A stretch of DNA of 64,000 nt from a virus. Shown one piece after another: positions 3,641 to 19,668 of the stretch. The notes under the pieces were generated by a model. The model made no database searches, had not been told where the DNA came from, and worked only from the letters and a program-made list of their open reading frames with translations. Position 1 is the stretch's first letter; each line of letters starts with the position of its first letter. Where the stretch lies: IMG/VR virus record IMGVR_UViG_3300044846_004348, positions 1 to 64,000 of that record; one strand, 5' to 3'. The position numbers and the translations under genes were made by a program.

Positions 3641-3750
3641 GGTGGAGTGCCTCCGCGCATACTTGCGTTTCGGAGTCCCTCGGCCCCGACTGATTAAGCG
3701 GATATTTAGGAAGTTCCTTTATATCACTAACTGCCCGAGGAGGGACAGTG
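3641..3750 (+). promoter_or_regulatory. GC-rich structured 5' leader of the major capsid gene, with an anti-SD stem
   Basis: Hairpins CTCCG-CGCA/TGCG-CGGAG (3651-3675) and GATAT..AGGAA/TTCCT..ATATC (3701-3725); GTCCCTC (3675-3681) is complementary to GAGGGAC (3740-3746), which overlaps the RBS. Confidence 0.55.
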
Positions 3751-5886
3751 GATCAACTCAAAGAAAAGCTAGATGTTCTTGCTGATCTTGACGACTCACA
3801 GGTTGCCGAGTTTCAAAAAGAAATCATTAGCCAGTTCGAGTCAGTTGAGAAAGAAGATCCTACTCCCCAAACAGTTGACGCGATGACGTCGCTTGCCGAC
3901 ATGCTTGACTCTGTTCGTTCAGAGGTTAAGCGCCGCGAGGCACAAGCAATTGAGCTTTCACAAAAAGCTGCAGAAGCTGCTTCTCGTGTTTACGGTCAAG
4001 ATGGCGACACAGAAGAAGAAATGGATTCAACAGAAGCAATGCCTTCTGAAGACACTCCAATGAAAAAACCTTCTGAAGAAACAGAAGAAATTATGGACAC
4101 AGCTGAAGAAGCAAAGCCAAAACCTGATACCGAAGCAGCAATGCATGAGGATAAGAAGGAAGAAGTTGTTGCTGAAGAAGAAGAAGATGTCCAAGAAGAC
4201 AAGGAGAAAAAGTCCATGACTGAAGCGTCGACCGATGCGGATAAGACCGTAGAACTCTCGACTGAGACAGAAATTGTAACTGAGACTGCACCCGCAGTTG
4301 AAGAAACAGTTGTTGCTTCTGCAGAAGAAATTGCAGAAGTAAAAGAAGAAGAAGCAGTAGTTGCGTCTGCTGAAGATGATAAACCATCTGAAGAAGAAGT
4401 AGCACCTGCAGAAGAAGAAGTAGTTGCTGAAGAAGCACCTGCAACTGAAGAAGCCGTAGCAGAAGAAGTTGCTGAAGAAGCAACTGAAGCTGATGCCGCT
4501 GCAGAAGTTGAAGATGGTTCCGAAGCTGCTGCAAAAGAAACCCAAACCGCACAAACCGTGCAGGAAGATAACATGGAGGCACCTGTGACCGCTGCTGCAG
4601 ATAAAGCAGACAACCTCAATATTGAGGTCCCAGCTGACCGTCGTCCAACCTCTCGGACATCTGCCGCTCCTGTGGCAATCACAGCAGGCGCAGATATCCC
4701 AGGTTATACCGCTGGCAGTCCGCTAGAAGATATGAAAACCGTTGCTGAAGCAATGTCAAAGCGTTTACACACACTACGTCGTGTAAATGGTGGAGACGGA
4801 GAGCAACACATCGTTGCATCTTTTGCAACACAGTACCCAGAAGAAAGAACTCTGACAACAGATCCAGAGTCTAACTGGGTAAAAATCAATGCTGTAACTT
4901 CTCCAGAAGCACTTGTTGCTTCAGGTGGACACGTTGCACCATTTGAAACTAAGTACGATATTTTCGGACTTGGTACCACAGTACGTCCAGTTCGTGACGC
5001 ACTACCTCGTTTCCAAGCAGATCGTGGCGGTATCCGCTTCGTTACTCCACCAGTACTTAGCGATTACGCTAACGCTGTTGGTGTATGGACTGCTGCAAAC
5101 GATTCAGCAGTAACACCAGATCCAGCCGCAAAAACTAGCTTGACAGTTACATCAGCCGCAGAAAACTCTGTAGCAACTGATGCTGTAACTCTTCAACTAC
5201 AATTCGGTAACTTGATGACTCGTGCATACCCAGAACTAATTGCACGTCACAACGAGTTAGGTCTGATCCAACATGCACGCGAAGCTGAACAATACTTGCT
5301 TAGCAAGGTTGCTGCAGGTTCAACAGCAGTTACAACCACTTCCCTAATCGGTTTTGGTCGTGACTTCTTAGTACAAGTTGGTCGTGCCGCTGCTGCTTAT
5401 CGTTCACGTCACCGTATGGAAGCAGACGCACCAATCCGCGTTATTGCTCCATCATGGGTACGCGACGCAATGCAAGCCGATCTAGCTCTATCTATGCCTG
5501 GCGATGGCTCTCTTGCCGTCTCAGCAAGTGAGATTGATGGCTACCTAGCAGCTCGCAACATTGTTGCAAGCTACTCACTAGATCAGAACGTGTTTGGATC
5601 TCAAGGCGTCTCAGCATTAGTTGAGTTCGCAGATTCATTCACATGGTACCTATTCGCTGAAGGAACATTCTTGTTCCTAGACGGTGGTACTTTGGATCTA
5701 GGCATCATCCGTGACAGCTCTCTAGTTGGAACCAACGATTACAAAATGTTCGTTGAGACCTTCGAAGGTGTTGCCAAAGTTGGTGTTGAAGGCTTAGTTA
5801 TCACTTCAACCATCTCTGTGAACGGTGTAGCTGCTGCTCTCCGTGATACAACAGGTGGCGCAACTGCTGCGGCAATTGAGTACTAA
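3748..5886 (+). CDS. Major capsid protein with a long acidic N-terminal scaffold-like extension
   Basis: SD GAGGAGG plus GTG; about 280 aa Glu/Ala-rich N-terminus, then an actinophage-type capsid core (ALVASGG, RDALPRFQADRGGIRF, GTLDLGIIRDSSLVGTNDY..FVETFEG); position after the protease gene. Confidence 0.85.
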   Translation: MDQLKEKLDVLADLDDSQVAEFQKEIISQFESVEKEDPTPQTVDAMTSLADMLDSVRSEVKRREAQAIELSQKAAEAASRVYGQDGDTEEEMDSTEAMPSEDTPMKKPSEETEEIMDTAEEAKPKPDTEAAMHEDKKEEVVAEEEEDVQEDKEKKSMTEASTDADKTVELSTETEIVTETAPAVEETVVASAEEIAEVKEEEAVVASAEDDKPSEEEVAPAEEEVVAEEAPATEEAVAEEVAEEATEADAAAEVEDGSEAAAKETQTAQTVQEDNMEAPVTAAADKADNLNIEVPADRRPTSRTSAAPVAITAGADIPGYTAGSPLEDMKTVAEAMSKRLHTLRRVNGGDGEQHIVASFATQYPEERTLTTDPESNWVKINAVTSPEALVASGGHVAPFETKYDIFGLGTTVRPVRDALPRFQADRGGIRFVTPPVLSDYANAVGVWTAANDSAVTPDPAAKTSLTVTSAAENSVATDAVTLQLQFGNLMTRAYPELIARHNELGLIQHAREAEQYLLSKVAAGSTAVTTTSLIGFGRDFLVQVGRAAAAYRSRHRMEADAPIRVIAPSWVRDAMQADLALSMPGDGSLAVSASEIDGYLAARNIVASYSLDQNVFGSQGVSALVEFADSFTWYLFAEGTFLFLDGGTLDLGIIRDSSLVGTNDYKMFVETFEGVAKVGVEGLVITSTISVNGVAAALRDTTGGATAAAIEY

Positions 5887-6866: not shown

Positions 6867-7913
6867 ATGGCCACTCAGGACTATGCGGCTAGCGTTCAAG
6901 GTGTGTCGATCCGAGTCACTAGACTGGACGCCGCTGGAAACTTGCTCAACGGAGCAGGAGACAGCTACACAACTTCGGCGTTCCTCCGCACATCATTCAC
7001 CCCAGAGTACGAAGAGGGTGACGAAATTGTAGAGAAGTCAGCAGACGGCACAGTATGTGTATCATACAAAGCCCCTGACACACTCAAAAGAATAACAATG
7101 GAATTGGCTATTTGTGAGCCAGATCCAGAACTAACTGCACTTATTTCTGGCGGTTTGTTGCTTCGTAGAAACGAAGGAACATTCAGCTCCCCAGATAATA
7201 AATCCGTTGGTTGGGCAGCACCTTCAGTTGGAGATGATCCAACAGGAAATGGTGTTGCATTAGAATGCTGGTCATTTGCTGTTAAAGATGGTCGCCGTGC
7301 TTCTGAACAACCATACTTTCACTGGATTTTCCCATACGCAAAACTTCGCCAAAGCGGAGATCGCGTAATCGAAAATGGAATGCTTGCAACCACATTTGAA
7401 GGTTACGGACTTGGAAACGTTCTATTCGGAGCTGGACTAGATGGCCGTTGGGAATACCCAATTGCTTCAGAACGCTCATACGCTTATGCTCGCTCATACT
7501 GGGCGCCACAGGGACTAAAAGGTTTCTACACATGGCACCCTAATTTAGCAGCAAATGTTAACAACAAATCTTTAACAAGCAACATTGCTACATTGACAAC
7601 TTCAGCTGCTCATGGTTTTGAAGTTGGTCAAAGTGTGACCGTTGCTGGTGTTGATTCAACATTTAACGGTACTTACACAATTACTGCTGTTCCAACTACT
7701 ACAACATTCCGTTATGCAAAGACTGCAACAAATGTTGAGTCTACTGCTGTATCTCCAGTAGGAACTGCTGTACGTAATGCTGGTTATGTTGCTGTGACAG
7801 ATTTTGCTTCACAGACTTCAACAACAAGTTTCAACGTCCCAGGTAGCGAAGAATATAATGCCGATCTACCAATCGACTTTATTATTGCTTCAACCGAGGA
7901 TCCAACTTCGTAA
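6867..7913 (+). CDS. Major tail (tube) protein with one inserted FCCH-like beta-barrel
   Basis: IRVTRLDAAG..EYEEGDEI.EKSADG..CV motif of actinophage tail tubes; insert TLTTSAAHGFEVGQSVTVAGVDSTFNGTYTIT; followed by a terminator. Confidence 0.8.
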   Translation: MATQDYAASVQGVSIRVTRLDAAGNLLNGAGDSYTTSAFLRTSFTPEYEEGDEIVEKSADGTVCVSYKAPDTLKRITMELAICEPDPELTALISGGLLLRRNEGTFSSPDNKSVGWAAPSVGDDPTGNGVALECWSFAVKDGRRASEQPYFHWIFPYAKLRQSGDRVIENGMLATTFEGYGLGNVLFGAGLDGRWEYPIASERSYAYARSYWAPQGLKGFYTWHPNLAANVNNKSLTSNIATLTTSAAHGFEVGQSVTVAGVDSTFNGTYTITAVPTTTTFRYAKTATNVESTAVSPVGTAVRNAGYVAVTDFASQTSTTSFNVPGSEEYNADLPIDFIIASTEDPTS

Positions 7914-10140: not shown

Positions 10141-10491
10141 ATGACAACACGATTTAAAGATTTTGGCGGTGCAGATTCTCAGCCAAAGGAAGCAATAAAA
10201 TTTAAACTACATGAAGAAGAGTTTTTATGTAAATCAGCAATTCAGGGTAAAACTCTTCTTAATTTAGTTGCTAAAACAGAGAATAATGAGCCATCTGAAC
10301 TTGCTAAAGTAATTGACGAGTTTTTTAGTCAAGTACTAGAGAAAGAAAGTTTGACTAGATTCGACAATCTTTTGAAACACGATAAAAAAATTGTTTCACT
10401 AGAAACTCTTGGTGAAATTACCTCATGGCTTATGGAGCAGTACTCAGATCGCCCTTTAACGGAGCCAGAGCCTTCCTCGAATGGGCAGTAG
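10141..10491 (+). CDS. Tail assembly chaperone (gpG-like)
   Basis: Upstream of the tape measure gene; slippery heptamer near the 3' end. Confidence 0.8.
   Translation: MTTRFKDFGGADSQPKEAIKFKLHEEEFLCKSAIQGKTLLNLVAKTENNEPSELAKVIDEFFSQVLEKESLTRFDNLLKHDKKIVSLETLGEITSWLMEQYSDRPLTEPEPSSNGQ
10452..10458 (+). other. -1 programmed ribosomal frameshift site C CCT TTA
   Basis: X XXY YYZ heptamer in the correct phase; the -1 frame is the open ORF running to 10874. Confidence 0.75.
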
Positions 10492-10874
10492 GACTCTGGC
10501 CTTATGTTAACGGTAAAGCATTAATGAACGGTATAAAACTAGAAGAGTTAAATTCTGTCGATATGATTGATATTTTACATTACATGTTTGAAGAAGATAT
10601 GAATGTTCAAAGTCAAGAACAGATGGACGCAAAAACTGCAGTAAGAGATGTAATTTATAAAGATTTTTACAGTTCTTACTATCCTTTTGGTGGTACCAGA
10701 AAGACAAATAGTAATTTAAATGCTGCTGGTGAGCCCGTTTCTAACTTTACTGATGATATTAAACCTTTTGATCCAGGAGTATCTCCAATTAGAAAAGGTT
10801 ACATACCGCCAACAAAGTTTGACCCAAATTCTACCAAGCCCTTTGGTAATAATTTAGATTCCCCACTTAATTAG
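10452..10874 (+). CDS. Tail assembly chaperone frameshift extension (gpGT-like)
   Basis: -1 frame ORF (track 10425..10874) overlapping the chaperone gene and ending just before the tape measure gene. Confidence 0.7.
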   Translation, partial: PFNGARAFLEWAVGLWPYVNGKALMNGIKLEELNSVDMIDILHYMFEEDMNVQSQEQMDAKTAVRDVIYKDFYSSYYPFGGTRKTNSNLNAAGEPVSNFTDDIKPFDPGVSPIRKGYIPPTKFDPNSTKPFGNNLDSPLN

Positions 10875-10896: not shown

Positions 10897-13800
10897 ATGG
10901 CAGTAGTAGGTAGTGCAAGTGTTGTCGTTAACGTCATCACCTCTGGGGTAGACAAGCAACTATCAGGTGCTTTTAGTGGCGGAGATAGAATCGGTAGAGA
11001 CGCTGGTAAGAAAGCTTCTGCTGGTTTTTCTAAAGGTTTTGCTGGTGGTGGCGGTGGAAGAAGACTTTTCTCTGATCAATTTTTTAAAGAAGCAGACAGA
11101 GCAAGAAAAACATTTCAAAGATTACTAAGAGTAGGTTATGCTTTAACTCCAGCTTTAGCAGCATTGGCTGGTATTTTAGGTAATGCCGCTGGAGCTTTGT
11201 TTTTACTTGCAACTGCGGCAGGTACTGCTGCTCCAGCACTTATTGTTTTGCCAGCTTCTCTTTTTGCCATAGCTCAGGCTGCAGTTGTAGCAAAAGTTGC
11301 TTTAATGGGCGTAGGTAAGGCTATTCAGGCAGGACTTAAGCCTTTAAAAAGTGGTGCCGCAGAAAATAAGGCTCTAGAAAATGCTCTTGAAAGATTAGAA
11401 GAAGCACGTATAAGACTTGCTCGTGCTGAAGAAGATAGAGCCGAAATTATTGCTGATGCAAATAAAAAAATTGTAGATGCTGAAGAAGATTATATTGATT
11501 CACAATATGAGTCAGAAAAAGCTGCTAAAGCTCTTTCTAAGGCTAGAGAAGAAGCTACAGAAGATTTACAACAACTTAGATTTGAAACTGAAGATGCTGC
11601 AATTTCTGAACAAAAAGCAAGACTTGAATTTGAGCGTTCTCGTGAATCGTTACAGCGTGTTCAAGATCTTCCACCTAACTCTCGTGCTAGACGTGAAGCA
11701 GAACTTGCATTTGCTGAAGCAGATTTAAATTTAAGAAGGTCTATTGATAAAAATTCTGATTTAAAGAAGGCAGAAGCAGAGGCTACTGCTGCTGGTGTTG
11801 ATGGATCAGAAAAAGTATTAGATGCTTCAGAAGCCTTAGCTGAGGCTAAAGAAAGAGAGCAAAAGGCATATGAAGCTGTTGGTGAAGCAGCATTGGATGC
11901 TGCTAGGGCTCAAAGAGATGCAAATAGGGCTGTAGCAGATGCAGAAAGAGCACTTGCAGAAGCAAAAGAAGATGTTGCTGACGCTGCTAAAGGCGCTAAA
12001 GATTCTGTAGATCAATTTGCTGAGGCAATGAAAAGATTGTCTCCCGAAGCTCAAGATTTTGTTAGATATATGTTATCTCTTAAAGATTCTTTCCAAGAAC
12101 TTAGAGCTGCTGCTGGTAGAGAATTTTTTCCTAAGTTAACACTTGCTATAGATAATTTAGTTACAAACTTACTTCCTAAATTAAATCCTCTTTTTGAAAG
12201 AACTGGCTCTATTCTTGGTGACGTAGCAATGGATATATCTAACGTTGTTACATCTACAGAAAACATTGGCAGACTTGAGAGAATTTGGTCTACAAACGAT
12301 CAGTTAATTGGTAATTTCGGAAGATCTGTTGGAAATCTTTATGAAGTTCTTTTAATTTTACTAGATGCCGCTGAACCTCTTATTAGGGAGTTTGGTGAGT
12401 GGATTGAGACTATTACTGAAGGTTGGCAACAAACTTTAAATGCTGAAGGTGCTTTCGATAGACTTAGAGGTTCTTTTGAAAGAGCAGGGGAAGTAGCAAA
12501 ACTTTTAGGTGAAATACTTGGTAATATTTTTACTGGAGTTCTTAATTTAGGTAAGGCTGCTAATTCTGGTGGTGCTTTAGATCTTTTCTTAACAAGAATG
12601 AGAGATGCAACTGAAAGTTTTGAAAACTTTACTGGAAGTGAAGCAGGAAGAAAGAAAGCTGAAGAATACTTTTTAACTACCGCAGAGAATGCTTTAACTT
12701 TAGGAAGAATTGTTGGAAAGTTACTTAAACCTTTTGGGGAAATAGGTGCAAGTCAAGATTTTGGTAATTTTCTTGGATCTTTAGAAAGAGCTGTTGAAAC
12801 TCTCACTGGCACATTGGATGACTTACTTGCTGATGGAATTTTAACATCGTTTGGTCTTTTTATTGAAGAATTTGCTACAACCATTGCTGGTTTTACAGTA
12901 GGTGGGGGTATTACAGTATTTTTTGATACTTTAACAGGGATTCTTGAAGTTATAAATAATATTATAACTTCCGATGCAGGTAAAGCATTTATAACAACAT
13001 TTGCTCCTATACTAGCTTTTTTTAGTGCTTTAGGTTTTGCTGGCGGCATTGCAAAGTTTTTTGGTAAAGTTATTGTTGGAACTTTAGGTTCAGCCTTTGG
13101 TGTACTGACTGGAATTTTTGGTGCTTTCTCTACAGCATTCAGATTCCTTATGACTTTTTTTAGAAATCCAGCAATTATTGTTAGGTTTATATCAATAGCT
13201 ATAGCTCCCTTAGCAAGTGCTGTTGGTTTAGCAGTTGGTCCATTTTTGTTAATAGTAGGGGCAATTGCTTTATTAGTAGGAGTACTTGTTGGTGCTTATC
13301 AGGCAAGTGAAGATTTTAGAACTGCTGTCTCTGAACTTTTTGCAGTTGTTAAAGAGTCAATTGTTGGTGCTTTAGATCAGGTAAAAGCTTCCTTTGAAGA
13401 TGCTTTTGGACCGATAGATGATATTAAAACTAAAATTATGGATGGCTTTAAAGTAATTGGAGACTTTATAGCAACATATGTAATTCCAATTTTTAAAGTA
13501 ATTATTCCTGCTGCCATAGGTTACTTAGGTGGAATAATTTCTGGATTGATCTATGTTGTAAAAGCTGTTTGGGACTATTTTACATTTGCATTTAATATGA
13601 TAAAAGGAATATTTAAACTATTTACTGGGGATACCGAAGGGGCTGTAGCAGCTTTTAAAAAGGCTTGGGAAGGTTTAAAAAGTTTCTTTAAAAATATAGT
13701 TAAAGCAATATATGCTCCTTTTGCTGGATTAGTTAACGGAATAATTAGAGGAATAAATTCAATAATTAGAGCTAAAAACAAACTTACTGATAACCAGACT

Positions 13801-14100
13801 TCCGAGTTAAGTCTTCTACCTACGGTATTAGATTTCGCTGAGGGTGGAACCGTATACCCAAGATCTGGTGGAGTTATTGCAAGAGTTGCAGAAGCTGGCA
13901 GACCAGAAAGAATTGAACCTTTAGATCCTAATGGTTTATCTGAAAGAGATAAAGCAATAGTAAAAATGTTTGCTGGTGGTAGTGGTGCTGGTACTGGTCC
14001 GACTATAAATGTGTACCCATCTCAGGGGATGGATGAGAGACAACTTGCTGAAATAGTTTCAAGAAAACTTGCTTTTCAGATGCGTAAAGGCGGAATTTAA
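10897..14100 (+). CDS. Tape measure protein
   Basis: 1067 aa, Ala/Gly-rich helical, coiled-coil and hydrophobic stretches, C-terminal FAEGG..VAEAGRPERIEPL; SD GGAGG. Confidence 0.92.
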   Translation: MAVVGSASVVVNVITSGVDKQLSGAFSGGDRIGRDAGKKASAGFSKGFAGGGGGRRLFSDQFFKEADRARKTFQRLLRVGYALTPALAALAGILGNAAGALFLLATAAGTAAPALIVLPASLFAIAQAAVVAKVALMGVGKAIQAGLKPLKSGAAENKALENALERLEEARIRLARAEEDRAEIIADANKKIVDAEEDYIDSQYESEKAAKALSKAREEATEDLQQLRFETEDAAISEQKARLEFERSRESLQRVQDLPPNSRARREAELAFAEADLNLRRSIDKNSDLKKAEAEATAAGVDGSEKVLDASEALAEAKEREQKAYEAVGEAALDAARAQRDANRAVADAERALAEAKEDVADAAKGAKDSVDQFAEAMKRLSPEAQDFVRYMLSLKDSFQELRAAAGREFFPKLTLAIDNLVTNLLPKLNPLFERTGSILGDVAMDISNVVTSTENIGRLERIWSTNDQLIGNFGRSVGNLYEVLLILLDAAEPLIREFGEWIETITEGWQQTLNAEGAFDRLRGSFERAGEVAKLLGEILGNIFTGVLNLGKAANSGGALDLFLTRMRDATESFENFTGSEAGRKKAEEYFLTTAENALTLGRIVGKLLKPFGEIGASQDFGNFLGSLERAVETLTGTLDDLLADGILTSFGLFIEEFATTIAGFTVGGGITVFFDTLTGILEVINNIITSDAGKAFITTFAPILAFFSALGFAGGIAKFFGKVIVGTLGSAFGVLTGIFGAFSTAFRFLMTFFRNPAIIVRFISIAIAPLASAVGLAVGPFLLIVGAIALLVGVLVGAYQASEDFRTAVSELFAVVKESIVGALDQVKASFEDAFGPIDDIKTKIMDGFKVIGDFIATYVIPIFKVIIPAAIGYLGGIISGLIYVVKAVWDYFTFAFNMIKGIFKLFTGDTEGAVAAFKKAWEGLKSFFKNIVKAIYAPFAGLVNGIIRGINSIIRAKNKLTDNQTSELSLLPTVLDFAEGGTVYPRSGGVIARVAEAGRPERIEPLDPNGLSERDKAIVKMFAGGSGAGTGPTINVYPSQGMDERQLAEIVSRKLAFQMRKGGI

Positions 14101-16466
14101 TGACATTACTTAATCAAGGTAAAGAATTTGAATTAGTAAACAAAAGTTTAACTCCTGTTGAAGAACCTATTAAAACTGGTCTTAAACTCCCTGGAGATAT
14201 AGTTTTAGGTAGTTTTGTTTTTAACACTGTCGATGAGTATGACGTTATTTGGGTTGTGACTGATATTGGTGGTTGGTGGAATCCACCAGAAGCAGAGATG
14301 CCAGACATAACTAGAGGTTACGGTGATGGCTCTTACGATTTTCAAGGAAGGTATGTAGCAAGAGAGTTAACTTTAGAAGGTGTATTTTTAACCAAAGACC
14401 CTTCACTAGTTGAAGCTGCTAGGGATCGACTTATCGAGGCAACTAATCTTGTTTACAAAGGTGCTTGGTTAATTACTGGTACTGATCCAAAAAGAGCTTC
14501 TTTTGTTCGTCTTTCTGGTCAAGTAGAAATTGAAACAACTAATGCGAGAGGTAGAACTGAGTTTTCTATTGGTCTTCGTGCTGCTGATCCTATTAAATAT
14601 GAGTGGAATGATTCCGAACCAGATGGTTATACGGTTATAGAGATACCTGCTAAAAACTTTATTAATGGAGATTCTGGCGTACAGACTATTACAAATATAG
14701 GTAATTATGATGTGCCTGTTTATTTGGAAGTAGTCGGTCCAGTTACATCTCCAGCAACTATTTTTAATAGAACTAGAGAAGAACTTGTATTAATGGTTTC
14801 TGGTATTAGAGGAAGACTTGGTTCTGTAATTGATAATAAAGAGCTTACTTTAGTTGAGTCTAGTTTAAAAGATGTGGCCACTCTTACTACACGTACAGCT
14901 CATAATTTTCAAGTAGGAGATGAAATTTTAGTTGAGGGAGTTGATAATATATTTGATGGACTATATATAATATCTTCTGTCCCTAGTGCAACAACATTTA
15001 CATATGAAATTGAAAATATCTCTAGTACATTACCAATTGTTCAAAAAAGTTTATTTAACAATATTGCCACTATCGAAACATCTGAAAATCATTCTTTTGA
15101 AGTAAACGATTCTATTTTTATATCTGGAGTGGATTCTGTATTTAATGGTACTAGCAGGATAACTGCAAAAACACTAAACACATTTTCTTTTGCAAAAACT
15201 AGAAATACTTCTACCTCTATAACTGGTGCAAGTATTATCTCAAATCAAGCAAATATTATTACTTTAGACCCCCACGAATTTATTCTCGGTGAAACTGTAA
15301 CTATTTCTGGTCTAGGGGGTAACTATAACGGCTCTTACATTATAACTTCTATTCCATCTTCTACAACATTTACTTATGCCGTAACTAGAACTAATGCTAG
15401 AAGTATTTTGAATAGGGTTTTAACTTCAAATGTTGCAACAATAACTTTAGACAATAATCATAATTTTCTTAGTGGAGAAAGTGTGCTTATTTCTGGAATA
15501 AATGATGCCTTTGATGGTGTTTATCAAATATCTTCTATTCCAACAACTACTACTTTTACATACAACCGTGAGAGATCTACTTCAAAAACAGTTACGGTTA
15601 AATCTAGAAATTCAAATACATCCATAATAACAACTGGTAGCGCCCACGGTTTATCTGCTACCGAGCAAGTTACTATCTCGGATGTAGAAGGCTTTAATGG
15701 AACATTTACTGTAACTTCAATTTTAAGTTCTAATAGTTTTAGTTTTGCCCAAACTGGCTCTAATCTAAACCCGACTGCAGTTTCTAATGGAAAACTAGTT
15801 GTAAATAAAAGACTAGTTTCTAAAAGAAAAAGACAAGGAAATGTTGCAACTATTACTACAGCAACCTCTCACGGGTTATTTGTAGGTGAAACTGTTAATA
15901 TTGAAGGAGTAGAAGCTAGTTATAACGGTGCAGGTAAAACTGTTACTGCTATACCTACAAGTAATTCTTTTACCTATTCTTCTACTGGTTCAGATGAAGC
16001 AGAACTTAACTCTGGAGGGTTAGTATCACTACTAGGAAACTACGCGGTATTACCAAGTAGCGCCTCGGTTGTGGGATTTGCCACAGTTTCTGGAAGTCTG
16101 CCTTTTACTTCAGTCCCTGGAACTGCAGTAGTTAATAATTATGTAGGCACCCCTATCTCTGGTGGAGTGACTCCACTAGTTACTGGCGGTAGGGCAACTA
16201 AAAAGAATGAAGTTCCTTTTACCCCTGGAGTTTCTATCTCTACAACAGCTACTGCAACTTATGGTCCAGATTTGTTAGAAATAGATACTCTTAACAGAGA
16301 TGTATTTTTAAACGGAGAAGTTGAAGGGGCTAGGGCAAAAATAGATATTCTTGCTGATTTTATAAAACTATCCCCTGGTGAAAATATTATTGAGTTTGAA
16401 GATTCTGGTAATCCAAATAGCGACGCGCTGTTAAAAATTTACTATAGATCTGGATGGTTAGGTTAG
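14100..16466 (+). CDS. Distal tail protein (Dit-like) with six inserted FCCH-like repeats
   Basis: Follows the tape measure gene; Dit-type ends (GGWWNPPE, RELTLEG, LRAADPIKY, TNIGN / LSPGENII..YRSGW); six TTxxxH-G/N repeats. Confidence 0.8.
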   Translation: MTLLNQGKEFELVNKSLTPVEEPIKTGLKLPGDIVLGSFVFNTVDEYDVIWVVTDIGGWWNPPEAEMPDITRGYGDGSYDFQGRYVARELTLEGVFLTKDPSLVEAARDRLIEATNLVYKGAWLITGTDPKRASFVRLSGQVEIETTNARGRTEFSIGLRAADPIKYEWNDSEPDGYTVIEIPAKNFINGDSGVQTITNIGNYDVPVYLEVVGPVTSPATIFNRTREELVLMVSGIRGRLGSVIDNKELTLVESSLKDVATLTTRTAHNFQVGDEILVEGVDNIFDGLYIISSVPSATTFTYEIENISSTLPIVQKSLFNNIATIETSENHSFEVNDSIFISGVDSVFNGTSRITAKTLNTFSFAKTRNTSTSITGASIISNQANIITLDPHEFILGETVTISGLGGNYNGSYIITSIPSSTTFTYAVTRTNARSILNRVLTSNVATITLDNNHNFLSGESVLISGINDAFDGVYQISSIPTTTTFTYNRERSTSKTVTVKSRNSNTSIITTGSAHGLSATEQVTISDVEGFNGTFTVTSILSSNSFSFAQTGSNLNPTAVSNGKLVVNKRLVSKRKRQGNVATITTATSHGLFVGETVNIEGVEASYNGAGKTVTAIPTSNSFTYSSTGSDEAELNSGGLVSLLGNYAVLPSSASVVGFATVSGSLPFTSVPGTAVVNNYVGTPISGGVTPLVTGGRATKKNEVPFTPGVSISTTATATYGPDLLEIDTLNRDVFLNGEVEGARAKIDILADFIKLSPGENIIEFEDSGNPNSDALLKIYYRSGWLG

Positions 16467-16514: not shown

Positions 16515-18539
16515 ATGGCTATAGAAGAAAGCATTGAATATAGATTCTTTCTTACGGATCTTTTAAGTAATGAAATTATCTCTGAAGTACCTTTTAAAGA
16601 TGTAAGTTTTAGTAGACAAATTCGTCGTGCTGGCGAGTTTTCAGGAAAAATTTCATTTATACCTCAGACTAGCGGTTTAAATCTTTACGAATCGACAATG
16701 CCAGGCAGAACTGGGCTATATGTAATGAGGAATGGAGTTTGTGTTTGGGGCGGAATTATATGGTCTAGATCTTATGATGTTTTGTCAAAAGAGTTAGATG
16801 TTTCTGCTGCAGAATTTATTAGTTATTTCTATCACAGGCATGTTTGGCAAACTTTAGTTTATGGTTCTAAATTTATTGGTATAGCTTCATACTCAATCAC
16901 TTCTGGTGTTGCAACTGTTGTGACAGAAGAACCTCACGGATTTGAGACTGGTGATAAAGTTGCAATTACTTTTACTAGTCCTTTAGTAGACGGTGTTAGG
17001 ACTATATCTTCAGTAAATTCGGCTAATCAATTCACTTTTAATGTGGCTTCTGCAAACGTACTATCTACGTCAATAAATAGTGGTGCAGTTAGAGGCTTAG
17101 TAGATACTTTTGATTTTGTTAGAGACATACTAAATTTAACTGCTACAGATCTTTCAGGTATAAACTTTGCAAATGAAGAGATAGAGCCTTCTCAAACTTT
17201 TGAAGTCGCTATTATCTCAAAACAAAGATTTAATAATTTAGTTACTTTAGTTACCTCTTCTGCACATAATTTAGTTATTGGTCAAGAAGTGTTAGTTTAT
17301 GAAGTTGACACTGCATTAAATGGTTCTCATGTCGTTACTAGTACCCCAGACGATACTACTTTTACATACGATTTACCTGGACCAAACATTACTAAAAGCA
17401 CTCTTCCTGGGTTAAAAACAATAAACATATCTACAAAAACTCTTACTGCTTCTCCTAGTGCAACTACTATAGATAGTCCAGCAACAGCCACAATTGTCCT
17501 CGCTGAGCCTCATGGAGCTGGGACAGGTCAAAGAGTTTTACTTCAAGGTGTTGATTCATTTTTTGTAGATAGACTCGATAAAAGATATGACGGATTTTTT
17601 GAGATTATAAATGTTCCTAATTCTACAACTTTTGAATACACCACTACAGGTATTTTAAGTGAGACTACCGCCTCAGTTATAGGTGGTACTGCAACTTTTG
17701 GTAGCAAAATAGTTTATGGTTCTTATGGAAGTTTTTCTTATAATGCAGACATCGATATAAGAGTATCTAATGAAACTAGCGGTCTGTTTCAGGAACAAAA
17801 AATTTATAGAGGTTATGAGTTAAAAACTATTGGTGAAATATTAGAAGAGTACTCAGAAAATATAAACGGTTTTGAGTATAGAATTGATTGTGACTACGAT
17901 TACGATACAGCTTCATTTACTAGAACATTTGTGTTGTTAGATTTATCTGGTCCTCCTGAATTAGAGGAGGGTGGTTTGCCAGATATATCAAGGTTTGGTG
18001 CAAATCAATTTGTTTTTGAATATCCAGGAAACATCTCAAAATTTACTGTTGAAGAGTCAGCAGAAAACGCTGCTACCAGAATGTTTACTATGGGTAAAAT
18101 TGACGATATATCTGGTGACTCAAGTCAACCTTACTCTGCTGACTCGGCTACTCAGCTACTAAACAATTTAAATGGTAGAAGTTGGCCACTACTTGATCAA
18201 GCAGAATCTGTAGATGGGGTATCAAGTGAGCAAGAACTCTATTCTTACGCTAAAGACTATCTTTATGAGTCACTACCACCAATTAGTGAGTTTTCATTGT
18301 CTGTAAATGGGTCTTTATCTCCTATTGTTGGTAGCTATAAACCAGGTGATTTTTGTTCAATAATAGTTAATGACGAGTTTGTTCGTGAAAGGTTGGCTAG
18401 TGATTCTGAGCCAAGAAGCGACATCATCATTAGAAAAATTGTTAGTTATTCTGTAACTGTGCCTGATAGTCCTCACTACCCAGAGGATGTTTCATTAGAA
18501 CTTATTACTGATTGGAAGGTAGAAGATAGTGGCAACTAG
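16515..18539 (+). CDS. Minor tail / baseplate hub protein (Tal-like) with three FCCH-like repeats
   Basis: YVMRNGVCVWGGIIW, GFEYRID, FEYPGNI, GSYKPGD motifs; follows Dit. Confidence 0.75.
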   Translation: MAIEESIEYRFFLTDLLSNEIISEVPFKDVSFSRQIRRAGEFSGKISFIPQTSGLNLYESTMPGRTGLYVMRNGVCVWGGIIWSRSYDVLSKELDVSAAEFISYFYHRHVWQTLVYGSKFIGIASYSITSGVATVVTEEPHGFETGDKVAITFTSPLVDGVRTISSVNSANQFTFNVASANVLSTSINSGAVRGLVDTFDFVRDILNLTATDLSGINFANEEIEPSQTFEVAIISKQRFNNLVTLVTSSAHNLVIGQEVLVYEVDTALNGSHVVTSTPDDTTFTYDLPGPNITKSTLPGLKTINISTKTLTASPSATTIDSPATATIVLAEPHGAGTGQRVLLQGVDSFFVDRLDKRYDGFFEIINVPNSTTFEYTTTGILSETTASVIGGTATFGSKIVYGSYGSFSYNADIDIRVSNETSGLFQEQKIYRGYELKTIGEILEEYSENINGFEYRIDCDYDYDTASFTRTFVLLDLSGPPELEEGGLPDISRFGANQFVFEYPGNISKFTVEESAENAATRMFTMGKIDDISGDSSQPYSADSATQLLNNLNGRSWPLLDQAESVDGVSSEQELYSYAKDYLYESLPPISEFSLSVNGSLSPIVGSYKPGDFCSIIVNDEFVRERLASDSEPRSDIIIRKIVSYSVTVPDSPHYPEDVSLELITDWKVEDSGN

Positions 18540-19668
18540 AAGACGTGCTCGTAGAAAAAGTTTAACTGCTAACATTACAGATATTCAAAGAAGACTCCGT
18601 TATGTTGAGTCTAAACCAAATCCATCTAGGTTAACTAATCAGGTGGTTAATCGTAGTGCAATTCAGTTTAATGCTGTTGCAACCGATCAGATTGCTCCAA
18701 ATGCTGTCACTACTAGTGAAATAGCACCAGATGCAGTAACAAATGATCAACTCGCATCTAACTCTGTTACAAATGATAATTTAGCAGATGATTCAGTTAA
18801 TAATTCTAATATTTTAAATGGTTCGGTAGGTACTGACGAACTTGCAAATGGTGCTGTAACTAATGACAAGTTAGCAAATAATTCTGTAACTAGTGACAAA
18901 ATTGTTAATGGGACAATTGTCGGTGCAGATATTGCAAGTAACACCATAGGTGGATCTAGAAGTGGTACTACATCAAAATTTATAGCAAATTCAATAGGTC
19001 AACTAGATATCGATGACGCAGCTATAGGATCTAACGAATTAATAAATCTTGCAGTTACAACAGGAAAACTTGCTGCTGGTGCAGTTACGACTTCTAAAAT
19101 TTTAGATAGTCAAGTTACTGTAAATAAACTTAACTTTGCTCCAATTACAAATATTACTTCTGGTTCTGGGATATCAGTAACTACCACTGGTCCAACATCT
19201 GTTGTTGGTACTCTTGGGAGAACTATCTCTGCAAGTTTTGGAACTGGAAGTACTAACGTAGCAAGAGGAAACCACACTCATAGCGTTTCTGGCAGTACAA
19301 GCCGTAATTTAAACCATAGCCACTCTATCAGTGGAACTGCCGCCTCTTCAAAAAAGTTTAAAAAAGATATAGAACTTTACGAGCTTTCTGAAGAAGATGT
19401 TAGTAATATTCTAAATTTAAAACTTTCTAAATTTAAATACAGAAATGAAGTAAAAGATTTTTCTTCAAATAGGGAGTGGAATTACGGATATATTGCTGAA
19501 GATGTTGAAGAAAATGCATTAGAGCAAATTGTTTCTTATAATAATGAAAAAGAACCCATTGCTATTGACTATGGTTTGTTGTCTGCATTTGTATTGGAGA
19601 TAGTTAAACAACAAAAAGAAGAAATTGAGTCTCTAAAGAAGAGATTATCTGAACTGGAAGGTGCGTAA
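18529..19668 (+). CDS. Tail fibre/spike with decapeptide repeats and a C-terminal intramolecular chaperone (peptidase S74-like)
   Basis: IAxxAVTxxx 10-aa repeats, HxH motifs, SSKKFKKDI..YGYIAEDV..IDY and a terminal coiled coil. Confidence 0.75.
   Translation: MATRRRARRKSLTANITDIQRRLRYVESKPNPSRLTNQVVNRSAIQFNAVATDQIAPNAVTTSEIAPDAVTNDQLASNSVTNDNLADDSVNNSNILNGSVGTDELANGAVTNDKLANNSVTSDKIVNGTIVGADIASNTIGGSRSGTTSKFIANSIGQLDIDDAAIGSNELINLAVTTGKLAAGAVTTSKILDSQVTVNKLNFAPITNITSGSGISVTTTGPTSVVGTLGRTISASFGTGSTNVARGNHTHSVSGSTSRNLNHSHSISGTAASSKKFKKDIELYELSEEDVSNILNLKLSKFKYRNEVKDFSSNREWNYGYIAEDVEENALEQIVSYNNEKEPIAIDYGLLSAFVLEIVKQQKEEIESLKKRLSELEGA

What the first reader, a model, noticed from the sequence alone, without database searches (positions are those of the whole stretch)
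14825..16265. Matryoshka repeats in Dit: four open barrels, two closed barrels, then four orphan closing strands
Seen: the complete unit in the major tail protein ends TFRYAKTATNVESTAVSPVGTAVR. Dit repeats 1-4 stop shortly after TF(T/S)(Y/F) and run straight into the next repeat. Repeats 5 and 6 keep their closing strand (NLNPTAVSNGKLVV, DEAELNSGGLVSL). Four closing-strand-like segments then follow in a row (AVLPSSASVVGFATV, SLPFTSVPGTAVV, VTPLVTGGRATK, VSISTTATATY) before the Dit fold resumes. Inference: each repeat is inserted in the last loop of the one before, so the chain runs out through four barrels, forks into two and returns, completing each barrel in reverse order. This gives an arm with both ends at its base that can be grown inside a loop. 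A linear domain scan would miss it.
Basis: partly seen in the sequence, partly recalled or inferred. Interest (0 to 1): 0.8.

Follow-up and report, generated by a model that had tools for sequence, protein, structure and literature searches.

The report
Russian-doll barrel arm in phage Dit
The baseplate ring protein (Dit) of this uncultured actinobacterial-type phage most likely carries an arm of six small beta-barrels plugged into one another's last loop, so that the chain goes out through four unfinished barrels and finishes them in reverse order on the way back. This way of building is solved for cyanobacterial RNA polymerase, but I found no description of it for phage tails.

Summary
ORF 14100-16466 is a 788-aa siphovirus Dit. 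It holds six E1-FCCH-like barrel repeats with periods 63, 61, 62, 62 and 75 aa, then an 80-aa strand-rich tail before the Dit fold resumes.

The nested reading is supported by prediction and comparison, not by experiment:
- **AlphaFold2 (pLDDT 87.5, tail 79-93).** Single-barrel PDB hits align to split ranges: R1 about 240 to 721, R2 308 to 703, R3 368 to 679. R5 and R6 align as continuous stretches.
- **ESMFold2, two-chain test.** R1-R4 (236-497) against the tail (647-724) scores ipSAE 0.72, best control 0.00. Residues 697-701 sit between R2 strands 312-313 and 339-342; 675-677 sit on R3 (374, 400-403).
- **Homologues.** Relatives carry 0, 1, 2, 4, 6, 7 or 8 barrels. The insert is about 76-81 aa per barrel at every count except four (about 87).
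- **Single-barrel relatives.** Their closing strand is collinear with this protein's last orphan.
- **An 8-barrel relative.** It differs from 7-barrel ones by one whole unit placed before barrel 7's closing strand.

The closest solved analogue is the Si3 insertion of cyanobacterial RNA polymerase. This scan has already noted similar nested barrels in other phage genomes. The function, probably an adhesion or reach arm, is inferred.

The parts
14100..16466 (+). Dit (distal tail protein) gene, 788 aa
   Evidence: The ORF lies between the tape measure and the Tal-like hub. Pfam SPP1_Dit C-terminal domain scores 28.3 bits against a cut-off of 25; phrog_5577 minor tail protein has E 2e-17. The model aligns to SPP1 Dit 2x8k_A at Z 16.4, monocin 9j1k_K at Z 16.8 and Douge 8zdo_m at Z 16.3.
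14181..14813 (+). Dit body, first part (aa 28-238): belt domain and the first strands of the galectin-like domain
   Evidence: Dit structures align across model residues 29-787 and skip the insert. Relatives with no insert join this part to the C-terminal part by about 3 aa (P0137).
14814..15017 (+). Barrel R1 (aa 239-306), open: five strands, no closing strand of its own
   Evidence: Core HMM hit at 258-303. The model has five strands here. Barrel hits span 239/241 to 721/725. This part is collinear with the only barrel of single-barrel Dits.
15018..15206 (+). Barrel R2 (aa 307-369), open
   Evidence: Pfam E1_FCCH matches 323-371. Barrel hits span 307/308 to 702/703. Residues 312-313 and 339-342 touch 697-701.
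15207..15392 (+). Barrel R3 (aa 370-431), open
   Evidence: Barrel hits span 368 to 678/679. Residues 374 and 400-403 touch 675-677.
15393..15590 (+). Barrel R4 (aa 432-497), open; it hosts R5 and R6 in its last loop
   Evidence: R4 residues 432-443, 460-467 and others are in the confident interface with the tail. Covarying pairs are 660-463, 660-469 and 661-456. The only barrel hit, 442 to 648, is ambiguous.
15591..15803 (+). Barrel R5 (aa 498-568), closed, with its own closing strand
   Evidence: It aligns as one continuous stretch to UBA1 FCCH: 9mc4_A Z 9.0 (492-569) and 2v31 Z 8.0 (494-570).
15804..16037 (+). Barrel R6 (aa 569-646), closed, at the tip of the arm
   Evidence: It aligns as one continuous stretch, 569-645 (8rbt_S, Z 6.5). 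Pfam End_beta_barrel matches 581-640 weakly. Its closing strand is the only strong hit (15.6 bits) of a closing-strand matrix trained on single-barrel Dits.
16038..16091 (+). Return segment 1 (aa 647-664): closing unit assigned to R4
   Evidence: Strand E659-663, pLDDT about 79-90. It lies in the confident interface. G659 and V663 are invariant.
16092..16139 (+). Return segment 2 (aa 665-680): closing unit of R3
   Evidence: Strands E667-670 and E674-678. Contacts 675-677 with 400-403 and 374. R3 barrel hits end at 678/679.
16140..16208 (+). Return segment 3 (aa 681-703): closing unit of R2
   Evidence: Strand E698-701. Contacts 697-701 with 312-313 and 339-342. R2 barrel hits end at 702/703. 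Top covarying pairs are 692-315, 696-312 and 698-312.
16209..16268 (+). Return segment 4 (aa 704-723): closing unit of R1
   Evidence: Strands E705-709 and E718-721. R1 barrel hits end at 721/725. It is collinear with the closing strand of single-barrel Dits: the BLAST segment 711-788 starts 8-13 aa before their C-terminal domain.
16269..16466 (+). Dit body, last part (aa 724-788) and stop codon
   Evidence: Pfam SPP1_Dit matches 724-786. The ditC profile matches all relatives.
7551..7766 (+). Reference complete barrel unit in the major tail protein (gene 6867-7913)
   Evidence: phrog_792 major tail protein, E 7.6e-22. Core HMM 81.8 bits at aa 239-285. The unit carries a closing strand.

Best explanation
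The gene encodes a distal tail protein (Dit) with a 485-residue insert in a loop of its peripheral, galectin-like domain. The insert is six copies of one small E1-FCCH-like beta-barrel, put together by recursive insertion.

Topology. Barrel 2 sits in the last loop of barrel 1, that is, between strand 5 and the closing strand. Barrel 3 sits in the same loop of barrel 2, and barrel 4 in that of barrel 3. Barrels 5 and 6, both complete, sit side by side in the last loop of barrel 4. The chain therefore runs outward through four five-stranded barrels and makes two complete barrels at the tip. It then runs back and lays one closing unit between strands 1 and 3 of barrels 4, 3, 2 and 1 in turn, before it re-enters the Dit fold.

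Shown here, by prediction and comparison: the topology; the conserved budget of about 79 aa per barrel; and growth by insertion of whole units at the distal end.

Inferred. The result is a stiff, two-stranded arm with both ends at its base, one on each of the six Dit subunits. It can be lengthened or re-tipped without disturbing the baseplate ring. Its most likely job is to hold binding surfaces away from the tail tip for contact with the host envelope. This would parallel the carbohydrate-binding modules of 'evolved' Dits.
For: - **Dit identity.** Gene order is TMP, Dit, Tal. Pfam SPP1_Dit is above its cut-off. Fold matches to SPP1, monocin, Douge, 80alpha, p2 and Bxb1 Dits reach Z 14-17 and skip residues about 239-723.
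- **Barrel fold.** UBA1 FCCH and the phi92 endosialidase barrel match at Z 8-9.6, rmsd 2.2-2.8 A over 73-82 residues. In the second model they match at Z 9.2-10.3.
- **Nesting in the AlphaFold2 model** (pLDDT 87.5; all five models 83-87.5). Single-barrel hits give the split ranges R1 to 721, R2 to 703 and R3 to 679. R5 and R6 are continuous.
- **Second predictor.** ESMFold2 with R1-R4 and the tail as separate chains gives ipSAE 0.70-0.74 against a best control of 0.00. This mark was reached by 58 of 80 solved complexes and 2 of 110 mismatched pairs. The three runs agree in at least 97% of contacts, and the partner's pLDDT is 87-88. Specific pairs are 339-342 and 312-313 with 697-701, 400-403 and 374 with 675-677, and 249 with 705. 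R1-R4 pLDDT is 90-91 with the true tail and 69-72 with unrelated partners.
- **Comparison across relatives.** Those with no insert have 3 aa at this site. Insert per barrel is 80 (n=1), 76 (n=2), 79.1 (n=6), 79.6 (n=7) and 80.6 (n=8). Tail length is about 23 + 17 x (number of short gaps), r = 0.95.
- **Single-barrel Dits** align to residues 4-298 and 711/716-788, so the last orphan is their closing strand.
- **P0027 (8 barrels)** against its 7-barrel relatives: one contiguous 77-aa unit lies in front of barrel 7's closing strand.
- **Second lineage.** A 4-barrel Dit (P0183) shows R2 spanning about 300 to 571 in more than 12 hits, including UBA1 FCCH at Z 10.2, and R1 spanning 234 to 586.
- **Covariation.** Of the top tail-by-barrel pairs that fall in R1-R4, 32 of 60 lie on the nested diagonal and 6 on the parallel one.
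- **Adhesion context.** Related Dits carry an N-terminal CBM_4_9 (34.6 bits, cut-off 25.9).
Against: - All structural evidence is prediction. No coordinates, contact map or error map could be read, so pairings come from first-and-last aligned residues and from a partial contact list.
- Both predictors may share a bias towards completing five-stranded barrels.
- pTM of the full model is only 0.51.
- The R4 to orphan-1 pairing has no clean structural-alignment row; the one row, 442 to 648, is ambiguous.
- A closing-strand matrix trained on single-barrel Dits does not pick up the four orphans above shuffled background. Their homology to closing strands is therefore positional, not statistical.
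- In the 4-barrel relative the middle of the tail (514-548) is below pLDDT 50, so barrels 3 and 4 there are unresolved.
- The tail-length regression rests on a few lineages, not on 186 independent points.
- The covariation is noisy; many top pairs go to the variable R6.
- Function is not tested at all.
Confidence: 0.75

Rival explanations
1. Beads on a string plus a separate tail domain. R1-R4 are complete, shorter (about 62 aa) versions of the barrel arranged in simple tandem. Residues 647-723 form a small beta domain or linker of their own that brings the chain back to the Dit body.
For: A linear domain scan sees six tandem cores and nothing in the tail. The orphans do not score as closing strands in a sequence matrix. 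pTM is only 0.51.
Against: Both predictors place the tail strands inside the barrels, not in a domain of their own. Each of R1-R4 has only five strands in the model. The insert length is about 79 aa per barrel whatever the arrangement. The last orphan is collinear with the closing strand of single-barrel Dits. The tail holds invariant residues.
Confidence: 0.1
2. Completion in trans. The returning strands close the open barrels of a neighbouring Dit subunit in the hexameric ring (a domain swap), or of another protein, rather than those of their own chain.
For: The two-chain prediction shows that the tail can complement R1-R4 as a separate chain. In Cece-type relatives the Dit gene seems to end inside a barrel array, and the next gene ends with second half-barrels plus a weak match to the last Dit strand.
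Against: Here both halves are in one chain. R4 leads directly through R5 and R6 into orphan 1, so closure within the chain is the shortest path. The monomer model closes them within the chain with high confidence. Arms that point outward from a ring are unlikely to reach each other along their whole length (inference).
Confidence: 0.07
3. Prediction artefact. The tail is a flexible or irregular return linker, and the open barrels are stabilised in some other way, for example by packing on each other or on Tal or fibre proteins.
For: Structure predictors tend to satisfy open sheets. In the 4-barrel relative, part of the tail is predicted with pLDDT below 50.
Against: The tail is as conserved as the barrels, with invariant Gly, Val and Phe positions. 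Tail length scales with the number of open repeats. Covarying pairs favour the nested pairing. Controls with unrelated partners score 0.00.
Confidence: 0.06

Closest known systems
Si3 insertion in the trigger loop of cyanobacterial RNA polymerase beta' (crystal and cryo-EM structures, PMC10895346; described as six-level nested in the domain-insertion survey PMC13114784)
   Same: In both, an elongated arm is inserted in one loop of a host domain and is built from many copies of one small beta domain. The proximal copies are discontinuous and are completed by distant parts of the chain, while the distal copies are continuous. The depth is comparable: five self-nested levels here, six in the relative P0027.
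   Different: The module fold differs (sandwich-barrel hybrid motif there, E1-FCCH-like six-stranded barrel here). The host protein and the biology differ (polymerase trigger loop there, virion baseplate ring here). No sequence relation was seen. Si3 is solved; this arm is only predicted.
'Evolved' Dits of siphophages that infect Gram-positive bacteria (J-1, lactococcal 936 and P335 groups, streptococcal phages; review PMC7291167)
   Same: Both are a Dit with extra modules inserted in loops of the peripheral galectin-like domain, so that the modules sit on the outside of the baseplate ring.
   Different: The described cases carry one or two carbohydrate-binding modules of BppA type, each a simple insertion. 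Here there are six copies of a different fold, recursively inserted into each other, and no binding activity is shown.
E1 FCCH-type barrel decorating siphophage tail tube proteins (gp39 of NBD2 and gp13 of MED16, PMC13576161), and the beta-barrel domain inserted in phage endosialidases (4hiz)
   Same: The small six-stranded barrel fold is the same: Z 8-10 to UBA1 FCCH and Z 9.2-9.6 to the phi92 endosialidase barrel. It is likewise used as an outward-facing decoration of phage tail proteins. In both E1 and endosialidase the barrel is itself an inserted domain.
   Different: Those are single copies. No self-nesting is described for them. No solved chain matches this repeat family by sequence (best E 0.04).

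Membership tests
Siphovirus distal tail protein (Dit) | Gene lies directly after the tape measure gene and before the Tal/hub gene | tested here: met
   TMP-like 1067-aa ORF at 10897-14100, Dit at 14100-16466, hub-like ORF at 16515-18539 (phrog_1885 minor tail protein, E 1.9e-29).
Siphovirus distal tail protein (Dit) | Two-domain fold: N-terminal belt domain plus a peripheral galectin-like domain | tested here: met
   The model aligns to SPP1 Dit 2x8k_A (Z 16.4, 234 of 242 residues), monocin 9j1k_K (Z 16.8), Douge 8zdo_m (Z 16.3), 80alpha 6v8i_AC (Z 15.2) and p2 2wzp_P (Z 14.1) over model residues 29-787.
Siphovirus distal tail protein (Dit) | Sequence-family match | tested here: met
   PF22768 SPP1_Dit scores 28.3 bits against a cut-off of 25. 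PF05709 Sipho_tail scores only 16.5 against 24.2. phrog_5577 minor tail protein has E 2e-17.
Siphovirus distal tail protein (Dit) | Forms the hexameric ring under the last tail tube ring | not testable with these tools
   No assembly prediction or particle data.
'Evolved' Dit | Extra folded module(s) inserted in a loop of the galectin-like domain | tested here: met
   Residues 239-723 interrupt the Dit fold. Relatives without an insert have 3 aa at this site.
'Evolved' Dit | The inserted module is a carbohydrate-binding module that binds the host cell wall | not tested
   No CBM family matches the barrels. Only a fold likeness to the endosialidase barrel is seen. A CBM_4_9 is found in relatives, but at their N terminus. 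A binding assay is needed.
E1 FCCH-like beta-barrel | Sequence match to PF16190 | tested here: inconclusive
   28.4 bits against a gathering cut-off of 29.5 for this protein. Relatives reach 34-39 bits.
E1 FCCH-like beta-barrel | Six-stranded closed antiparallel barrel that superposes on the FCCH domain | tested here: met
   2v31 Z 8.0 (73 aa, rmsd 2.8), 9mc4_A Z 9.0 (74 aa, rmsd 2.7) and 4p22_B Z 9.0. In the P0183 model Z is 10.2-10.3 at rmsd 2.0-2.1. These are predicted models only.
Recursive (nested) self-insertion of one domain, Si3 type | Proximal copies are discontinuous and are completed by the returning chain in reverse order | tested here: met
   Split alignment ranges for R1, R2 and R3 and the contact pairs of the two-chain prediction. 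The R4 pairing is indirect. Prediction, not a solved structure.
Recursive (nested) self-insertion of one domain, Si3 type | Copy number changes by insertion of whole units inside a loop of an existing unit | tested here: met
   P0027 against its 7-barrel relatives. Single-barrel Dits against this protein. Constant insert length per barrel.
Recursive (nested) self-insertion of one domain, Si3 type | Homology to the SBHM modules of Si3 | tested here: inconclusive
   No SBHM or Si3 chain appeared among the rows listed. The barrels resemble FCCH instead. The likeness to Si3 is one of architecture, not of family.

The most novel reading that the evidence does not exclude
In a large group of uncultured and cultured actinobacterial phages, the FCCH-like barrel acts as a self-inserting building block. 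Its last loop is a general socket, so arms on the Dit (and on the hub and fibre proteins of the same phage) grow and are re-tipped by dropping whole units or foreign domains into the most distal barrel. This gives a stiff out-and-back rod whose length and tip set the reach and specificity of host contact. If true, this would be a second, independent and virus-borne case of the deep recursive domain insertion so far solved only in cyanobacterial RNA polymerase. It would also be a mechanism by which baseplates evolve without touching their ring contacts.
Probability: 0.45. Interest if true: 0.7.

Novelty: new variant of a known kind. Interest (0 to 1): 0.6.

Why it matters
**For domain annotation.** Linear domain scans read this protein as six tandem repeats plus an unexplained tail. 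The nested reading explains the whole 485-residue insert. It also predicts a rigid arm on each of the six Dit subunits.

**For phage biology.** It gives a simple rule for how baseplate decorations can be lengthened or exchanged at the tip while the ring-forming parts stay untouched. That bears on host-range evolution and on engineering phage tails.

**For protein architecture.** It adds a viral case, with a different fold, to deep recursive domain insertion. The literature I could search describes that only for RNA polymerase Si3.

**For experiments.** Cultured relatives exist (Microbacterium phages Cece, Zooman and Big4; Actinomycetia phage DSL-LC01), so the prediction can be tested by cryo-EM.

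Tried and rejected
- **Sequence search of the PDB.** The whole protein gave 0 hits at E up to 1. A profile of the seven barrel units gave a best E of 0.04 to an unrelated enzyme. No solved relative exists by sequence.
- **Profile HMM of the closing unit**, trained on single-barrel Dits. HMMER could not define such short matches usefully.
- **Ungapped position matrix of the same closing units.** It finds only R6's own closing strand (15.6 bits). The four orphans do not exceed shuffled background. I therefore do not claim statistical sequence homology of orphans to closing strands.
- **Looking for model coordinates in the script box.** None were there. No contact map or arm length could be computed.
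- **AlphaFold2 of a 4-barrel Dit from another lineage (P0183).** It confirms nesting for barrels 1 and 2. Tail residues 514-548 stay below pLDDT 50, so it says nothing on barrels 3 and 4.
- **Mutual information with APC** on 177 sequences (Neff 67). It is supportive but noisy, with many top pairs to the variable R6.
- **Classifying gaps of 20-22 aa as open or closed from length alone.** This proved ambiguous (P0183 and the R6 to R7 gap of 7-barrel proteins).
- **Pfam on the extra 90-218-aa tip domains of longer relatives.** No family matched.
- **Literature searches for nested insertions in phage tail proteins.** They found nothing on point. The Douge text showed no mention of nested Dit inserts, and the held Jabs record (1,865 characters) was too short to check. 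This is an absence in the held library only.
Full report
**What is there.** The finding's coordinates (14825-16265) are residues 242-722 of a 788-aa ORF at 14100-16466. This ORF follows a 1067-aa tape-measure-like ORF (10897-14100). After it comes a hub-like minor tail protein gene (16515-18539; phrog_1885, E 1.9e-29).

The protein matches the C-terminal Dit domain of Pfam (PF22768, residues 724-786, 28.3 bits, cut-off 25). It also matches E1_FCCH (323-371, 28.4 bits, just under the cut-off of 29.5) and, weakly, the endosialidase beta-barrel (581-640). Its nearest isolated relatives are minor tail proteins of Microbacterium phages Cece, Zooman and Big4 and of the freshwater Actinomycetia phage DSL-LC01.

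- Six repeat cores score 68-86 bits against a profile built from themselves.
- The conserved His sits at 268, 331, 392, 454, 516 and 591, so the periods are 63, 61, 62, 62 and 75.
- Aligned with the single unit of the major tail protein (gene 6867-7913, unit 7551-7766), R1-R4 end 5-8 residues after the fifth strand. R5, R6 and the tail-protein unit go on for 15-18 residues that hold a closing strand.
- The four 'orphan' strings lie at 649-663, 666-678, 690-701 and 711-721.
- The tail is conserved: G646, G659, V663, G665, G697, F707 and T708 are invariant in 71 homologues of 47-85% identity.

**Structure prediction, first model.** AlphaFold2 on that alignment gave mean pLDDT 87.5 (five models 83.2-87.5) and pTM 0.51. 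Tail residues 640-725 scored 79-93, with short strands at 659-663, 667-670, 674-678, 684-686, 689-691, 698-701, 705-709 and 718-721. Each of R1-R4 has five local strands. I could not read coordinates, so I used the ranges reported by an all-against-PDB structural alignment.
- Dit structures (SPP1, monocin, Douge, 80alpha, p2, Bxb1) align at Z 14-17 over model residues about 29-787 with about 235-263 aligned residues. They therefore skip the insert.
- Single six-stranded barrels of unrelated proteins align with 68-87 residues over split ranges. R1 spans 239/241 to 721/725 (8qq5_A, 6l2u_B, 1tll_B, 8c4l_B). R2 spans 307/308 to 702/703 (9jlf_E, 1i8d_A, 5i4q_C, 7nhk_H). R3 spans 368 to 678/679 (3agp_A, 1s0u_A).
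- R5 aligns as one continuous stretch to the UBA1 FCCH domain (9mc4_A, Z 9.0, 492-569; 2v31, Z 8.0, 494-570). R6 also aligns as one stretch (8rbt_S, 569-645).
- For R4 the only row (4p22_B, 442-648) is ambiguous.

**Second predictor, with controls.** I gave R1-R4 (236-497) and the tail (647-724) to the complex tool as two chains, each with its slice of the alignment.
- ESMFold2 scored ipSAE 0.70, 0.74 and 0.72. The best of three controls scored 0.00. The tool states that this mark was reached by 58 of 80 solved complexes and 2 of 110 mismatched pairs, and that these counts hold only roughly because my own alignment was used.
- The runs agree in at least 97% of contacts, and the partner's pLDDT is 87-88.
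- The lowest-error pairs put 697-701 against 312-313 (R2 strand 1) and 339-342 (R2 strand 3). They put 675-677 against 374 and 400-403 (R3 strands 1 and 3), and 705 against 249 (R1 strand 1).
- The interface lists cover strands 1 and 3 of all four barrels and nearly the whole tail.
- Confidence in R1-R4 is 90-91 with the true tail and 69-72 with unrelated partners.

This is a split-protein test. A pass shows that the model sees the two parts as one fold. It does not show that they bind as separate proteins.

**Homologues.** Two word-index searches and one exhaustive search with the N-terminal 243 residues gave several hundred Dits of this clade. I mapped the two halves of the Dit body and the barrel cores on them with profiles.
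- Relatives without an insert join the halves by about 3 residues.
- Median insert length per barrel is 80 aa for one barrel (40 proteins), 76 for two, 79.1 for six (82 proteins), 79.6 for seven (58) and 80.6 for eight (8). This holds although the first four periods are only about 62 aa. The three 4-barrel proteins are the exception, at a median of 87.5 aa per barrel.
- The stretch from the last core to the Dit body is 18-26 aa when no short gap precedes it and 30-34 aa with one short gap in the 2-barrel Dits. It is 82-102 aa with four short gaps and 107 aa with five. The fit is 23 + 17 per short gap, r = 0.95.
- These points come from few lineages, so the fit illustrates the rule rather than proving it.

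Two alignments are more direct.
- Single-barrel Dits match this protein in two collinear pieces, 4-298 and 711/716-788. The second piece starts 8-13 residues before their C-terminal domain, on their closing strand. This protein is therefore a single-barrel Dit with about 400 residues inserted in the last loop of that barrel.
- The 8-barrel P0027 differs from its 7-barrel relatives by one contiguous block of about 77 aa (lead strand, core and its own closing strand). The block lies between barrel 7's fifth strand and the strand that aligns with the relatives' barrel-7 closing strand. Other relatives (P0033, P0040) hold an unrelated domain of about 165 aa at the same site.

In about 150 of the 177 sequences of the close family the four proximal short-period repeats are constant. 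A few members have one or two longer proximal gaps (for example P0124 and P0130). Larger changes in architecture lie at the distal end.

**A second lineage.** AlphaFold2 of the 4-barrel Dit P0183 (38% identical) gave pLDDT 81.1. More than twelve single-barrel hits span about 296-302 to 570-574, including UBA1 FCCH at Z 10.2 and rmsd 2.0 over 74 residues. The endosialidase barrel spans 234-586. So barrels 2 and 1 are again completed, in reverse order, by the last part of the tail. Residues 514-548 are below pLDDT 50, so barrels 3 and 4 of that protein remain open questions.

**Covariation.** On 177 family sequences (Neff 67), APC-corrected mutual information is noisy. Its top tail-by-barrel pairs nevertheless include 692-315, 696-312 and 698-312 (orphan 3 with R2) and 722-239, 706-277 and 721-277 (orphan 4 with R1). 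They also include 661-456, 660-463 and 660-469 (orphan 1 with R4) and 672-377 and 669-376 (orphan 2 with R3). Of the 60 top-100 pairs that fall in R1-R4, 32 lie on the nested diagonal and 6 on the parallel one. I count this as weak support.

**How it most likely works.** The predicted topology, the length budget and the growth by whole-unit insertion are supported by the results above. The rest of this paragraph is inference.
- The barrel has its two ends side by side. It is itself an inserted domain in E1 enzymes and in endosialidases, which I state from general knowledge of those families. A copy can therefore be dropped into the last loop of another copy.
- Repeating this gives a rod in which every proximal barrel is stapled shut by the returning chain. 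That should make the arm stiff, and it puts both chain ends at the base. An insert in a loop of the Dit ring requires exactly that.
- New units or foreign domains enter at the tip, where they do not disturb the ring.
- The likely role is contact with the host envelope. The same module decorates the major tail protein and the hub of this phage. Related Dits carry a CBM_4_9 at their N terminus. Inserts at this site in other Dits are carbohydrate-binding modules (PMC7291167).
- No binding was tested.

**Comparison with what is known.**
- Recursive insertion of one small beta domain is solved for the Si3 insertion of cyanobacterial RNA polymerase. There, SBHM-2 to SBHM-5 are built from distant parts of the chain (PMC10895346).
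- A 2026 survey cites that case as its most complex, with six nested levels (PMC13114784).
- FCCH-type barrels on siphophage tail tube proteins are described as single copies (PMC13576161).
- I found no paper that describes nested barrels in a Dit or any phage tail protein.

Notes of this scan report the same kind of build on other DNA: cyanophage gp7 and fibre proteins, and a Tal and a split Dit of actinobacterial phages. This finding is therefore one more instance, not the first. I rate it a new variant of a known kind. The nesting is five self-nested levels deep here (R1 to R4, then R5 and R6) and six in P0027.

**Verdict.** I give the nested topology a confidence of about 0.75. The adhesion-arm function is much less certain.

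Noticed in passing
L001:2506-7647 (Microbacterium phage Cece genes 81 and 82): Cece's Dit (928 aa) has one barrel at the usual site. A second array follows position 47 of the C-terminal Dit profile: seven first-half core matches at a period of about 36 aa, then one full core, and the protein ends there. The next gene (781 aa) ends with four second-half core matches and a weak match (5.8 bits) to the last 15 positions of the Dit C-terminal profile. Many metagenomic relatives (P0139, P0143, P0343 and others) show the same pattern.
   Followed up: partly
relatives P0327-P0360 (about 547 aa), not in the window: A large group of related Dits has an N-terminal CBM_4_9 carbohydrate-binding domain (34.6 bits, cut-off 25.9), followed by the Dit body with a single closed barrel. 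Many other relatives have a 170-200-aa N-terminal extension before the Dit body.
   Followed up: partly
relatives P0033/P0040 (951 aa), P0072/P0110/P0129 (1006-1068 aa): Extra domains of about 90-218 aa with no Pfam match sit at the distal end of the arm (after barrel 6 or inside barrel 7's last loop). They may be specificity modules at the tip.
   Followed up: partly
window 16515-18539 (+): The Tal-like hub carries three cores of the same barrel at aa 132-176, 241-286 and 324-376. The spacings are irregular (109 and 83 aa) and may also hide insertions.
   Followed up: no
window 18529-19668 (+): A 379-aa protein has a phage fibre repeat and a C-terminal Peptidase_S74 intramolecular chaperone domain (26.9 bits, cut-off 22). 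It is probably a self-cleaving tail fibre or spike.
   Followed up: no
window 10141-10874 (+): Two overlapping ORFs (10141-10491 and 10425-10874) lie directly before the tape measure gene. This is the usual place of the tail assembly chaperone pair made by programmed frameshift. No slippery site was looked for.
   Followed up: no
window 3748-5886 (+): The major head protein (phrog_777, E 2e-86 over aa 177-703) has a long N-terminal region of about 280 aa that is very rich in Glu and Ala and lies mostly ahead of the capsid fold. The opposite strand there gives long spurious ORFs.
   Followed up: no
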